Origin: Eledone cirrhosa | Lineage: Eukaryota | Assembly: GCA_964016885.1 (NCBI GenBank) | Contig: OZ024740.1 | Location: 90,892,001-90,956,000 of the forward strand | Direction of reading: 5' to 3' | DNA: 64,000 bases | Shown here: in pieces, positions 1 to 29,983 of the stretch | How the letters are laid out: each line of letters starts with the position of its first letter | Position numbering within the stretch: position 1 is the first letter of the stretch | Program-made: the position numbers and the translations under genes | The notes under the pieces: model-generated | Database searches by the model: none | What the model was told of the DNA's origin: nothing | The model's input: only the letters and a program-made list of their open reading frames with translations

Positions 1-3000
1 GAAGGATTTATAGGTGGAAGTTTTGAAGGTTTACTGAGATTATGCAATGACATCAGTTATCTGAACTGAATCAAGAGTGGCTTAAAATAGATATGATATC
101 TCTTTCTTAATATCGTTGCTTTTTAATGGCAAAAATGTTGGCACATATGTGTTCCACACGTTGTATATACGCTTATTTCGAGAAATAAGAAATGGAGACC
201 TAATTCGCAAATTATCATATTCCGGAATATAACAGATATTGTGGAATTAATTGCGGCGTATCTGTAAATCTCCTTCACGTCCTAATGCTTTATGTTTATG
301 CCAATGATGTAATCTCGGATGTATCCAAGTTGTTTTAATGTTTTTAGTTTATGGTATTATCAGTTAGGTATTACATGGTCAACTATTTTGCAAAGGGAAA
401 TAGGACGTAGGCTACTTGAGTTTGGTCATCATATTCTTGGCGGTTTATAGTCGGCGGCCATTCTTGAATGAATTCTAACATTAAAGCTAAATTGTTTTTA
501 GTTTAAGTATGTGAGATGATTTTAATGAGCAGCTCATAATGTCATACTCTCTTGCCCTGGAATTGATATTCTTAGAGCGGAAGAACAAATTAGAATGGAC
601 AATAATGTATTTCCAAATACAAGAGAGCAACAGGCATTGCTCAGTAACAGCAGAAAAGGAAAATATAACGATTCGCAAGATTTTAGTTAATGGCAAATGG
701 AACGGCTTATAGTCTTGGAGCTTTTTCACTTTTACCGATAAGGATAAAATTGTGAACTCGATCAACTTCATTCAGCTGAGTGCTGGAGGAATATTTATGT
801 TTCGATTAATTTCAAACCTCACATATAGAATATATTTTCATTTTCATATATGATACTTTCCTACATAACGACATACTTGTGTAATAGATACGACGCTCTA
901 ATTCAGCAGAGATCGGGAAAATATCACATGGTATTTATGTACGGCATTTCATTTTCTAATTATGAAACCAAAATATCAGTACAGGGATATGCTATATCTA
1001 AGAGATTTTGTAAGATCGCACACTCAAGCGTCAACGTCATGTAAGATATCTATAATAATAAGATATAGCATCTTATGTTATAATATTACTAAGTATTTGT
1101 ATGATGTACACATCAATAATAAGTTTTAATTTAACCCGATGTGAATTACCACCCGCATTAGAATATTTACTAAATATATAATAATGATTTACTATGAACT
1201 AAGATTCATTTTATGCTGCTATTTCTGATGTTCTTTCGTCGTATCATTTAAAACAAGAACATACGCACTTCTGTCGTATTGTATTCTGATATTACTGCAA
1301 TTTGGGGAATAGTATAGCCAGAAAAAATAGGTACCTAAGTGTAATGAAATCATAGCAAAATGGAAATCCAGTATATCTTTGGCGAAAAATGCCCACTTAT
1401 ATATATATTTAAAGGTTTATCATAAAGACTAGCAATGATATAATACTAAATACCAAAATATCTCCGTGATATATGCTAACGCAATGTATTCTCCAACTCC
1501 TTCGATTTTATCCATTTACACCCTCACATAGATTGTTTAATTAACTTATGCAATAACTATTCTCATACACGTTAGATATGAGAATCATATGCAAACAATG
1601 TAGGCGAAGGTTAGTTTTTGAATAGTAAGAGTATCCATAATCAATTTCGATGAACTTGCATCCCCAGCATGCTATTTTGCTTTCGAACTCCACAGGGTGT
1701 GTTAAATATTTCGGCGAACTCTACAAAATCTTGTTCATATTGTAATATTGCACGTTTATTTGACTAACATGAAGTTATATGATTTTCCATTATATGACTG
1801 ATATATATGCATTGGGGTACAATACAATAATCTAAAAAATCAGGTACATGCTGTGGCGATGTGAAATAATATCATGGCATCAAAGGGCAATTCAGTTTTC
1901 TGTGCATAATGTATTAAAATAACCAAGCGAAATAGTTTAATGAAAGCTTGACTTTCTCTATACTTTCCGGTATTGTTCTCTTAAATAACTTCCTCACTGA
2001 AATCTTCTGTCGTATTCATTCAATGCAATGCATGCTTATTGCACTTCCTTTAACTTTTGAGAACAGTCTAAAGTAAATAATTAAGGGTTTTCATTAACAT
2101 TTCGATGATTATTTGATAATTGATATTTGATAATGAATCAAATTCATTAACTGATTATGATTTATAGAACAAATTCAAATGCGTTTTTCATTGATATTCT
2201 ATACATTTAAAAATTCAATGAAGAGTTTGATTCATAAAACGTTACAAGTGTCGATTATTCGCTAAACAGCAAAGTGAAATAAATTTAGATTTAATTAAAA
2301 TTTCAACCTTACTACAATTAAAACACGAGTATCGGATATGTGTTACATATGTTGATTCATATAGGTAAGATATTTTCAGAACTGTATAAGGTATACGTAA
2401 TGTATTAGTTTTTACAACTTACATGCAAACTTAGTTATTTATGTCACAACATACCTAAGATCTTTTACACTATAAATATTATTTATTATTAATTTGATAA
2501 ATGATATTTGTGAAAGTTAATTATGTAACTTGTATTCTATAAAAATGATAACAGCCGCTAATTATAACTGTATTTATGCAAGATATATTTATTATTTTGC
2601 GCAGAATATATGCAACATGTAGCTCTGATAAGAGGAAATGTATTTTAACAAAATATGCGATAAACAATCTTGTTTATAAAATATATTAGCATGTTACATG
2701 CATAGTTTTGTGTAGCCTATGCAATGTATATAAGTGAGGAATTTAGAAATTCTTATCATTTTTAAAGAACCTTAAATAAATTATAATGCAACAATTCAGC
2801 AACGTTGTATATCTTTTTCAAATTGTTCGAATTGATAATGGACAATTATTAATGTTCGTGGGAATAACAGATGCTAATTTTCAATCATATATCTTTTGCA
2901 GTACCTTTACGTGCGAGAAATATGTTTTACTGTCGATTAGAAAGATAACGGTGGATAAATCAAGTTAAATATATATATATATGTAAATATCTTTAAGTCG

Positions 3001-3902
3001 TTTGGAAGCCTCGACAATGCAAATGGGTAAATCTCCGGGTAACAAGGTCCGGTGGTGGAGAGAGAGATGTAAGTGGGTGTACGTGTGAGATGCGTGGTGT
3101 GTATAAGATGTGTGAGATGTGTAGAATGAAGGGAAGAGTATAAAGGATAAAATTAAAATAACAACACGAGAGAAAGTTACCTTGGGAGAGATTTAATAGT
3201 CCCTATATATTTCGGATTCACATCCATCAACTGGGATTTTTTCCGGGGTGGGGGAAAAGGTTGTCTGTCGGACAAGTCCGTAACGCGTCCTTCGCTGTTT
3301 GTTGTTTTGAATATCTGAGGTATTCGGCAGAGCGCGCGTGCGCCTGAAATGGGGTCGGTCGTATAGAGGTCAGCAGCCGAATGAGGGAGAGGGATGGCGC
3401 TAGCTGTCAGTCCATTCTCTGCCTGTTTGTTAAATGTTACTGTGTGTGTGTGTGCGTGTGTTGTTATCTCACTTGAGTGTGTGTGTGTGTGTGTGCGTGT
3501 GTTGTTGCCTTGTTCCTCTGTATTGGCAGTGTAGTATGTTCGTATGGTGGAATGCTACTGTGTGCGTGTGCGTGTGTGTGTGTAGTTGTCTCGTTTGCGT
3601 GTGTGTGTTGTGTGTTGTTGCATCGCTTGTTAACTTAAACCAGCCATCTCATTTCGCTTCTCTCTGATCGGTTATTTATTTGCGGTTGCAGTCGTTTGAT
3701 AAAAAGCGCTTCCTTGATACGTAACGTGCCGACGTTTCTTTCAGTCGCTAGAATTGTGACAATGGGCCTTCCGTCTTTGTTTCCGCATTTGTCTATGTAT
3801 TTCCGAAAAGACGAGGCCATGGTTTTAATGTGTTCCTTGATCCGGATGTGCAAAGGTCGAATTGTGCTACCTATGTAGTATTGGTTGCACCTGTCACATT
3901 CT

Positions 3903-4170
3903 AGAATGTGACAGGTGCAACCAATACTACATAGGTAGCACAATTCGACCTTTGCACATCCGCATAAAGGAACATATTAAAACCAGGGCCTCGTCTTTCC
4001 GGAAACACATAGACAAATGCGGAAACAAAGACGGAAGGCCCATTGTCACAATTCTAGCGACTGAAAGAAACGTCGGCACGTTACGAATCAAGGAAGCGCT
4101 TTTTATCAAACGACTGCAACCGCAAATAAACAACCGATCAGAGAGAAGCGAAATGAGATGGATGGTTTAA
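3903..4170 (+). pseudogene. PLE GIY-YIG endonuclease C-terminal fragment (mirror copy 3635-3902 on -)
   Basis: LECDRCNQYYIGSTIRPLHIRIKEH...LRIKEALFIKRLQPQIN: YIG motif, R..EH and E...I...P..N typical of PLE GIY-YIG. Confidence 0.85.
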
Positions 4171-4552
4171 GTTAACAAGCGATGCAACAACACACGACAC
4201 ACGCACACACACACACACCCGCACACGCACAGAGTAGCATTCCACCATACGAACATACTACACTGACAATACAGAGGAACAAGGCAACAACACACGGACA
4301 CACACACACACACTCAAGCGAGAGAACAACACACGCACACACACACACAGTAACATTTAACAAACAGGCAGAGAAGGACTGACAGCTAGCGCCATCCCAC
4401 TCCCTCATTCGGCCGCTGACCTCTGTACGACCGACCCCATATCAGGCGCACGCGCGCTCTGCCGAATACCTCAGATATTCAAAACAACAAACAGCGAAGG
4501 ACGCGTTACGGATTTGTCCGACAGACAACATTTTCCCCCACCCCGAAAAAAC

Positions 4553-28992: not shown

Positions 28993-29075
28993 GTATTGCC
29001 TTGTCCGATGAAGGAATGAGGACGTTTTTTGTATTCGTCTTATTCGGGAAACCTCTGGCAATGAGGTAGTTATAC
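28993..29075 (+). ncRNA. Hammerhead-like motif with CCGAUGA core (mirror ~23378-23460 on -)
   Basis: CCGATGA-..GAATGAGGACG..CGTCTTATTC..-GAA-ACCTC tggcaat GAGGT-A; stem I weak. Confidence 0.6.
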
Positions 29076-29579
29076 TCTATTGTTTATTATACATATAATT
29101 TCGTCTGGTACTTACATAGAGCACTCTTCACTCCTATGAATTTTTCAATTTTCAATGGAAACTTCAATACTTATATATATATATATATATGTGTGTATAT
29201 GTGTATGTATATGTATACCACATTGTATATTATATTTCATTCTATATTTTTCTTATGTTATTATACTGTTTTATGTTATTATCTGTTTATTGCATAATGT
29301 AATTTGAAACTGTACAGCTGTGTTTATATATGTACATGTATATGTGTTGGCACTTATGTGTGTGTAGGCAGATGTGCATACGTGTAGGTGTATCCATGCG
29401 GCAGCATGTATGCGTACGCATGTGTAGATGTATGTTAGTATTTGTATGTATATGTGTGGATGTGCGTATGCATGCTAATTTGTCTTTTTTTCTTTGTGTG
29501 TATATATGTATATATATGTATGTATATATGGGGATGTGTGTGTGTGTGTAGGTACGTGTGTAGGCGATGTTTATAAACG

Positions 29580-29983
29580 GAAAAAATGAAACAACATTTC
29601 ATTTCCCACTCTTAGTACGGCTGTTACTTAAATATAAGAAGTTCGTACACGTACATACATATATGTATACAGACATACAGTAGTATGTATACATATATAT
29701 ACATATATGCACACACACATATATATATATATATATATATATATATATATATATATATATATATATATATATATATATATATATATATATATATATATAT
29801 ATATGTACGTATGGATTCACCGAACATTTATTATAATGCTTGGTGTGTTTGTAAACAAACATCCCGTATTAAGCCGTAGTGTCTAGCTACCATCGTTGCT
29901 CGTTTGTTCAACGCTGACAAAGGAACGCTGTACTAGTTTCAAGCTTATTAGCTATCGTCAGCAACGTATACCTTCCTGCCAGA
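29580..29983 (-). mobile_element. Fragment of the retrozyme-like family with HHR at 29925-29967
   Basis: Matches 4885-5330; ACGTTG-CTGACGA-T-AGCT aata AGCT-T-GAA-ACTAGT-A-CAGCGT; cut off where the LINE begins. Confidence 0.85.

What the first reader, a model, noticed from the sequence alone, without database searches (positions are those of the whole stretch)
2983..29983. Ribozyme-dense island: about 25 hammerheads of about 9 families nested in (TA)n around one intact Naiad RT
Seen: almost every non-microsatellite block from 3 to 30 kb carries an HHR and is bounded by (TA)n; five more motifs of three more families lie at 57-61 kb. Only 11830-14136 is intact. Established: PLE pLTRs carry HHRs. 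Inference: autonomous PLEs and many non-autonomous ribozyme parasites share a (TA)n target and create new targets for each other, forming a self-reinforcing landing pad.
Basis: partly seen in the sequence, partly recalled or inferred. Interest (0 to 1): 0.75.

Follow-up and report, generated by a model that had tools for sequence, protein, structure and literature searches.

The report
Nested Hydra-clade Penelope hammerhead pile-up
This 27-kb stretch is a nested pile of jumping-gene ends (mostly Hydra-clade Penelope-like elements, not Naiads) sitting in TA repeats, most carrying a predicted self-cutting RNA; some copies duplicate their TA landing site and several families carry more TA inside them, which likely helps later copies land on earlier ones, but the stretch is only a dense example of a load spread over the whole genome.

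Summary
The hammerheads are real motifs: 18 intact type I folds in 2983-29983 (0 in 40 shuffles), plus 5 damaged and 2 half ones, in 8 families. The labels are wrong. The intact ORF is a Hydra-clade PLE (C-terminal endonuclease, RWK, DKT, CxCx5C), not a Naiad. Six of the 8 families are cut-down ends of RT-coding PLEs; only two tandem families look protein-free (retrozyme-like). About 13 insertions, nearly all bounded by (TA)n, built the island. The intact element and one retrozyme sit inside the internal (TA)n of an older element. Genome-wide, all 100 listed Hydra-1 ends run into (TA)n, and 7 of 18 informative insertions duplicate the TA target (4.9% for cross pairs). Both ingredients of self-seeding are therefore shown. 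Its strength is not: across random tiles TA density alone explains the clustering. The island is the upper tail of a genome-wide load of about 240,000 hammerheads (95 in 1.2 Mb sampled). This scan reported the same system, and a similar load, on other DNA of this genome. Hydra (TA)n targeting and retrozymes are published. Self-cleavage is untested.

The parts
2983..4848 (+). J: fold-back 3' end of a canonical C-terminal-EN PLE (Neptune/Nematis-like); GIY-YIG remnant 3841-4170, inverted arm 2983-3900; no hammerhead core
   Evidence: (RT+EN upstream in L063: DKG, GPKF, CCHH-type EN)
4881..5443 (-). F2a: short fold-back copy of the F-type retrozyme-like repeat; hammerhead core at 5136 with weakened stem II
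5569..6852 (+). G: 3' end (pLTR) of a Neptune-like PLE (4.85-kb tandem unit elsewhere); minimal hammerhead at 6733 with unpaired stem I; 1,421 core matches
6879..10722 (+). A1: 5'-truncated Hydra-1 insertion (inverted arm 6879-8183, main arm 8179-10722); hammerheads at 7042 (-) and 10418 (+)
10741..16339 (+). B: one insertion of a Hydra-family 3' UTR (inverted arm 10741-10967, main arm 10968-11423 and 15772-16339); hammerheads at 10871 (-) and 16281 (+); host of A2 and C
   Evidence: (ORF in L216)
11474..14938 (+). A2: full-length Hydra-1 element nested in B's internal (TA)n; short inverted arm with a cut hammerhead (11637), long-stem-II hammerhead at 14634
11830..14136 (+). Intact 768-aa Hydra-clade RT + C-terminal GIY-YIG ORF (RWK 30, DKT 108, YRDD 339, CxCx5C 628, VY..YIG 648, CxxC 726, CxH 754)
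14987..15711 (+). C: 525-bp tandem retrozyme-like repeat nested in B; hammerheads at 14997 and 15521; 224 core matches, often 524-531 bp apart
16479..18402 (+). D: fold-back 3' end of a Hydra family; hammerheads at 16558 (-) and 18248 (+)
   Evidence: (ORFs in L223, L226)
18505..18919 (+). E: fold-back pLTR stub of a Hydra family; long-stem-II hammerhead at 18713
   Evidence: linked ORF in L234
18946..29572 (.). K: old fold-back insertion of a decayed Hydra family (ORF remains 24.8-27.5 kb, junction about 25377). Its 3' UTR carries an antisense D-type hammerhead (19387) and hosts H, F and S in internal (TA)n
19724..19872 (+). S: 149-bp TA-flanked repeat end with only a half hammerhead core; parent not found
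19953..23245 (+). F: retrozyme-like array of ~486-bp units (one inverted arm with hammerhead 20243, five tandem hammerheads 20983-22889), unequal ends, both in (TA)n; 10,718 exact core matches
23281..23465 (-). H: Hydra-family pLTR stub in the left arm of K; hammerhead 23448 with U4 and U16.1 both changed to C
28988..29171 (+). H: the same stub in the right arm of K; hammerhead 29005 with the same two core changes
29573..29990 (-). F2b: partial F-type unit; hammerhead at 29961; not TA-bounded
57371..61180 (.). Second small cluster: hammerheads 57915 (one core mismatch), 58446, 59732, 61071 and a half motif in the 57.4-kb fold-back

Best explanation
The island is a nested pile of about 13 insertions in (TA)n tracts, mostly truncated ends of Hydra-clade Penelope-like retroelements plus two protein-free tandem repeats, all likely pasted in by PLE endonuclease/reverse transcriptase. 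Inferred steps: the enzyme nicks (TA)n and primes reverse transcription on both strands at two fixed sites 60-300 nt downstream of the hammerhead. Even very short copies therefore tend to include a hammerhead, and fold-back copies include two. Shown: some insertions duplicate 15-35 bp of the TA target, and families B and K carry internal (TA)n that later elements have used. These two features give local positive feedback, but in my sample it does not add clustering beyond what TA density predicts. The hammerheads are predicted dimer-type ribozymes; cleavage is likely not needed for insertion.
For: Clade motifs. ORFs attached to B, D, E, H, G and J. Hydra-1 is young: 565 end matches and many 99%-identical open frames. 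TA targeting. Target duplication: 7 of 18 versus 4.9% of cross pairs, 0 of 20,000 permutations. Nesting: B anchors 402-474 bp apart in 4 other copies but 4,566 bp apart here; K's UTR continues across H, F and S. Fixed unequal ends in A, B, D, H and F match the two RT start sites and 'tail' shown for Poseidon_Ac (PMC11167929, parts 1-2 read). Core-to-end distances are 58-302 nt. Stem I pairing holds when it is not used for detection: 16 of 22 versus 8% for swapped arms. F-type variants show 6 compensatory pairs. 64 of 80 Hydra-1 arms read through the cleavage site.
Against: No tree with reference clade sequences was built; clade calls rest on motifs. Isolated motifs fold no better than shuffles (z -1.8 to +0.1), and the Hydra-1 motif does not take the hammerhead fold as its MFE. 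11 of 18 informative flank pairs show no duplication (4 of them mis-anchored), and 20 of the loci were picked for interrupted right flanks. Only 24 of 40 closed left ends were TA; D long ends 2 of 4. Feedback looks weak: overdispersion of events (p=0.004) vanishes with TA as covariate (p=0.75); Hydra-1 neighbours 12 of 29 versus 26-28% (p=0.047 and 0.077); only 74 of 732 long TA runs lie within 300 nt downstream of a detected hammerhead. Which RT moves C and F is not shown.
Confidence: 0.8

Rival explanations
1. Passive accumulation: every family targets (TA)n independently, and the island is just a tolerant, TA-rich region at the tail of a random distribution; feedback is negligible.
For: TA density explains tile-to-tile clustering (Pearson chi2 107 on 118 df); one of 18 random 30-kb stretches has 7 events; the window was picked for density; 90% of long TA runs have no detected hammerhead just upstream.
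Against: Five of the island's nested pieces (A2, C, H, F, S) sit in TA carried by B or K; targets are duplicated; 8 events against 2.1 expected from TA count (P=0.0016, uncorrected for selection).
Confidence: 0.35
2. One reading: one autonomous RT with many non-autonomous ribozyme parasites forms a distinct self-reinforcing landing pad.
For: C and F are protein-free tandems with PLE-type ends; nesting and target duplication are real.
Against: Six of 8 hammerhead families have their own ORF elsewhere; the intact copy is itself a late guest inside B; at least one other intact family exists at 78% identity; the density is genome-wide.
Confidence: 0.1
3. The (TA)n is written by the elements (slippage tail made during reverse transcription) and is not a pre-existing target.
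For: All 100 listed 3' ends run into TA, as a tail would; internal TA is abundant in several 3' UTRs.
Against: Left ends, including directly truncated ones, also lie in TA in 24 of 40 cases; interrupted TA strings recur on both sides; PMC8557442 (section 11) treats (TA)n as the Hydra insertion target.
Confidence: 0.1

Closest known systems
Hydra clade of C-terminal EN+ Penelope-like elements, incl. Hydra-1_Obim (Craig et al. 2021, PMC8557442; read: section 11, passages, supplement rows)
   Same: Single ORF with RT then GIY-YIG, RWK, DKT, CxCx5C, CxxC/CxH, no CCHH, canonical hammerhead, (TA)n insertion, inverted and tandem copies with a one-sided tail.
   Different: Many co-existing families; tails of about 60-140 bp rather than 30-40 bp; long stem II (up to ~110 nt); microsatellite-laden 3' UTRs that act as targets; duplications resolved here, where the paper often could not discern them in microsatellite targets (said of Naiad/Chlamys).
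Non-LTR retrozymes (Cervera and de la Pena 2020, PMC7229834, passages; Li et al. 2026, 10.64898/2026.07.22.740005, parts 1-2 of 5)
   Same: C and F are protein-free tandem units with one type I hammerhead per unit and low GC; proposed in print to be PLE-dependent.
   Different: Units of 486 and 525 bp with internal (TA)n; arrays end with a PLE-type inverted arm and unequal ends in (TA)n, which is genomic evidence for PLE-type insertion; no RNA data here.
Naiad clade (PMC8557442)
   Same: (TA)n preference, fold-back and tandem copies, present in cephalopods.
   Different: Naiads have an N-terminal EN, a DKA motif and no canonical hammerhead; this ORF has none of these traits.
Poseidon_Ac in vitro mechanism (Frangieh et al. 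2024, PMC11167929; parts 1-2 of 4 read)
   Same: Two internal RT start sites giving a tail; both strands extended; hammerhead cleavage not needed for insertion.
   Different: Different clade; AT-rich ATT target rather than (TA)n; not tested for Hydra.
Minimal hammerheads of truncated PLEs (Cervera and de la Pena 2014, PMC4209133; part 1 of 4 and passages)
   Same: Dual motifs 100-700 bp apart on opposite strands from truncated PLEs; palindromic stem III, dimer-type; U3-A8 variant.
   Different: Thousands per genome there, about 240,000 estimated here (different descriptors).

Membership tests
Naiad PLE | GIY-YIG endonuclease N-terminal to RT | tested here: not met
   YRDD at 339, VY..YIG at 648 of 768 aa; definition
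Naiad PLE | DKA motif | tested here: not met
   No DKA; DKT at 108
Naiad PLE | Lack of canonical hammerhead | tested here: not met
   Full-core motif at 14634 in the 3' UTR
Hydra PLE | Short single ORF, C-terminal GIY-YIG EN | tested here: met
   768 aa, unit about 3.2 kb; slightly above the '<3 kb' typical size
Hydra PLE | RWK present, N-terminal GxKF/Y not conserved, DKG changed to DKT | tested here: met
   RWK 30, DKT 108; the only GxKF/Y match is at 722 and a DKG triplet at 37 is outside the motif position
Hydra PLE | CxCx5C linker; CCHH absent; CxxC and CxH near the C-terminus | tested here: met
   CNCHLPERC 628, CRFC 726, CNH 754; no CxxC inside the GIY-YIG core
Hydra PLE | Insertion into (TA)n and canonical hammerhead | tested here: met
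   100 of 100 listed 3' ends; hammerhead
Hydra PLE | Phylogenetic placement in the Hydra clade | not tested
   Reference sequences were seen only as supplement text; no tree built
Type I hammerhead ribozyme | Conserved core with stems I-III | tested here: met
   18 motifs against 0 in shuffles; stem I 8 of 10 when not used for detection; compensatory changes in F types
Type I hammerhead ribozyme | Self-cleavage | not testable with these tools
   Needs in vitro transcription; monomer folds not better than shuffles
Non-LTR retrozyme (C, F) | Tandem protein-free units with one hammerhead each | tested here: met
   486-bp and 525-bp units; no ORF in the window's arrays or attached to the C copies examined
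Non-LTR retrozyme (C, F) | Expressed as linear and circular RNA | not testable with these tools
   Needs RNA data from this organism

The most novel reading that the evidence does not exclude
Hydra-clade PLEs run a self-seeding target economy. Each insertion copies its TA target, and families with microsatellite-laden 3' UTRs spread several fresh targets per copy, so the elements are a main engine of TA-tract proliferation and of the densest hammerhead load I found on record (about 79 per Mb, against about 4.5 per Mb in axolotl). A nested sense-strand hammerhead can travel with its host element only once its core is dead, as with the two H copies inside K.
Probability: 0.3. Interest if true: 0.62.

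Novelty: new member of a known kind. Interest (0 to 1): 0.42.

Why it matters
The parts are known kinds, but the locus gives three testable things. First, an intact, recently active Hydra-clade element (RT, endonuclease, pLTR, defined ends and target) for a clade that has no biochemistry in the papers I read. Second, genomic scars showing that retrozyme-like arrays are inserted in the PLE manner, which bears on the open question of who mobilises animal retrozymes. Third, direct examples of target duplication and of nesting into element-borne (TA)n, a route by which microsatellite-targeting elements could feed themselves. The estimated 240,000 hammerheads exceed the 126,247 reported for the roughly ten times larger axolotl genome, and Rfam missed them in this window.

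Tried and rejected
Rfam scan: no hammerhead among the 150 of 199 listed matches, which were microsatellite noise. DNA search of the genome with the F hammerhead found nothing, since common words are skipped; patterns were used instead. Pfam gave no family for the intact ORF. My first two scanners were too strict and missed long or mismatched stem II. RNA runs: no RNA holder listed, so no reads were laid. A hot spot of 5' truncation at the cleavage site was not found: 3 of 39 ends within 4 nt, 1.7 expected, p=0.25. A hammerhead-dead H subfamily was rejected: 96 of 100 listed copies keep UA. H as K's own pLTR was rejected: none of 7 other K copies has H there. U3:A8, G3:C8 and A3:U8 cores: none in the island. 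S as a Naiad end: no RT found near 14 matching loci, unresolved. The ACTC..GAGT end hairpin named in earlier notes was found at only one island end (B, 10784) with a plain pattern. The H short-end pattern matched nothing and the B short-end pattern did not separate true ends from read-through, so neither is used. Literature searches for octopus or cephalopod hammerheads and for nesting with target duplication in Penelope elements listed no paper on this; an Octopus vulgaris repeat paper (PMC13282606, passages) does not mention ribozymes. bioRxiv supplements were not available.
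Full report
OBSERVATION. The window is G000:C1:90892001-90956000 of a 3.0-Gb animal assembly; I did not identify the host. Rfam listed no hammerhead among the 150 of 199 matches shown. I therefore wrote a type I scanner allowing a long stem II and a short or palindromic stem III. It finds 18 exact-core motifs in 2983-29983 and none in 40 dinucleotide shuffles. Five damaged motifs (5136, 6733, 11637, 23448, 29005) and two half motifs bring the total to about 25, in 8 families. At 57-61 kb there are three intact motifs, one with a core mismatch and one half motif.

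ARE THE FOLDS REAL? To avoid circularity I detected motifs without stem I and scored stem I afterwards. At least 5 of 6 pairs formed in 8 of 10 non-redundant island motifs and 16 of 22 random-tile motifs, against 7-8% for swapped arms. Six distinct F-type sequences show 6 pairs with changes on both sides (a small, related set). 15 of 26 families have a perfectly palindromic stem III, the dimer-type design described in PMC4209133. Against this, isolated motifs fold no better than shuffles, and the Hydra-1 motif's MFE is not a hammerhead.

THE ORF IS HYDRA, NOT NAIAD. Craig et al. define Naiads by an N-terminal endonuclease, DKA and lack of canonical hammerheads. They define Hydra by a C-terminal endonuclease, RWK, DKT, CxCx5C, no CCHH, CxxC/CxH, canonical hammerheads and (TA)n insertion; their supplement lists Hydra-1_Obim. 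The 768-aa ORF has RWK 30, DKT 108, YRDD 339, CxCx5C 628, VY..YIG 648, CxxC 726 and CxH 754. The family is young: many copies are 99% identical with full-length open frames, and a second family at 78% also has them. No tree was built.

WHO OWNS THE HAMMERHEADS. In other genomic copies, B, D, E and H are joined to Hydra-type ORFs (L216; L223, L226; L234; L229, L231, L232). G ends a 4.85-kb tandem unit with a Neptune-like RT-EN. J ends a canonical C-terminal-EN PLE and has no hammerhead core in 12 listed 3' ends. Only F (486-bp units, 10,718 exact core matches) and C (525-bp units, 224 matches) look protein-free. Other pattern counts are B 1,428, D 3,917, H 1,730, G 1,421, K 9 and Hydra-1 ends 565. 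The Hydra-1 pattern's last letter excludes copies that run on into the 5' UTR. Hammerhead cores lie 58-302 nt from the element ends, and fold-back copies carry two arms, so hammerhead density overstates the number of events: I count about 13 insertions.

TARGET. All 100 listed Hydra-1 3' ends run into (TA)n, and 24 of 40 closed left ends are TA. B long ends 12 of 12, H 11 of 14, D 2 of 4 and J 12 of 12 (two are the window's own copy) agree. In random tiles 75 of 95 hammerheads have (TA)6 within 250 nt downstream, against 16% of random positions. A, B, D, H and F each have a short and a long end on opposite arms. This fits the two internal RT start sites and tail shown in vitro for Poseidon_Ac. 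64 of 80 Hydra-1 arms read through the cleavage site, and 5' ends do not pile up there, as expected if uncleaved RNA is the template.

FEEDBACK: SHOWN PARTS. (i) Target duplication. In 7 of 18 Hydra-1 insertions with interrupted TA on both sides, the same interrupted string of 17-35 bp occurs left and right, against 4.9% of cross pairs (0 of 20,000 permutations). Four of the 18 were mis-anchored at internal junctions, and 20 of the 49 loci had been chosen for interrupted right flanks. (ii) Internal targets. Two B anchors lie 402-474 bp apart in four other copies but 4,566 bp apart here, because the intact Hydra-1 and C sit in B's internal (TA)n. Three of six other B loci (L216, L219, L220) also hold foreign inserts in internal TA, but these loci were picked for widely spaced arms, which favours such cases. 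K's 3' UTR continues across H, F and S, and carries the antisense hammerhead at 19387 in two other K copies as well.

FEEDBACK: HOW STRONG? In 120 ten-kb tiles taken at round coordinates on C1-C11 and C28 (small chromosomes under-sampled) there are 95 hammerheads, 0 after shuffling and 1 in the reversed control. That gives about 237,000 genome-wide (bootstrap 162,000-319,000) in at least 37 families. About 19 of 32 U3:A8 hits look like further real families (my judgement). The island has 18 motifs in 8 script-defined events; the best of 18 random 30-kb stretches has 11 in 7. Events are overdispersed (p=0.004) but not after TA density is modelled (p=0.75). The island exceeds its TA-based expectation (8 against 2.1), but it was selected for density. 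Hydra-1 copies have another hammerhead within 1.45 kb on the far side in 12 of 29 cases, against 26-28% for long TA runs and 9% for random places (p=0.047 and 0.077). Only 74 of 732 long TA runs lie just downstream of a detected hammerhead (a lower bound). So self-seeding exists locally, but it is not shown to drive the landscape.

COMPARISON AND NOVELTY. Hydra (TA)n targeting, hammerheads in truncated opposite-strand PLE ends, and PLE-dependent retrozymes are all published. The highest count I found is 126,247 motifs in axolotl (genome 28.21 Gb), about 4.5 per Mb against about 79 per Mb here, with different descriptors. Searches for cephalopod hammerheads or for self-seeding nests listed nothing specific. 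Earlier notes of this scan on other pieces of this genome reach the same Hydra reading and a similar load; they are not independent support. A word search of those notes for target duplication with nesting returned none. Verdict: new members of known kinds, with target duplication and internal-TA nesting as the added evidence; interest 0.42.

Noticed in passing
L234:1646-4129 (6-8 kb upstream of the window): An E-family Hydra ORF with an 828-aa open frame but YRDE in place of YRDD, so probably RT-dead despite the open frame.
   Followed up: partly
window 23448 and 29005: Both H copies, in sense orientation inside K's 3' UTR, share the same two core changes, while 96 of 100 listed genomic H copies keep UA. 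The antisense hammerhead in the same UTR (19387) is intact. This would fit selection against a cutting ribozyme inside a mobilised RNA, but it is a single case.
   Followed up: partly
L222, L224, L225, L226: D-family units carry two related hammerheads about 1.0-1.3 kb apart in the 3' UTR in L222, L225 and L226, and further apart in L224; the stretch between them is a candidate precursor of a retrozyme-like unit.
   Followed up: no
window 19724-19872 (S): Other copies have GAAA about 25 nt upstream of a CUGAUGA half core at the 3' end, like the 'HHR_half_core' noted for cephalopod Naiads in the supplement of PMC8557442; no ORF found nearby.
   Followed up: partly
L053, L054, L056, L061, L065, L090, L259, L266, L268, L283, L284, L299: Several families with a U3:A8 core, a published variant; the fold-back at window 57.4 kb is a cut relative.
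   Followed up: partly
window 4818-4848: J's tail encodes the first codons of its ORF (compare L063), so reverse transcription appears to start inside the ORF as in Poseidon_Ac.
   Followed up: partly
window 18703-18712: E's inversion junction falls on the hammerhead's stem I and cleavage site, and several B copies invert at the stem I palindrome; hammerhead stems may serve as microhomology for joining the two arms.
   Followed up: no
window 30000-45300: Decayed non-LTR retrotransposon ORFs (endonuclease and RT fragments) and a ~235-bp dispersed repeat (34.2, 45.6, 49.0, 63.2 kb) with no detected hammerheads.
   Followed up: no
   Followed up: no
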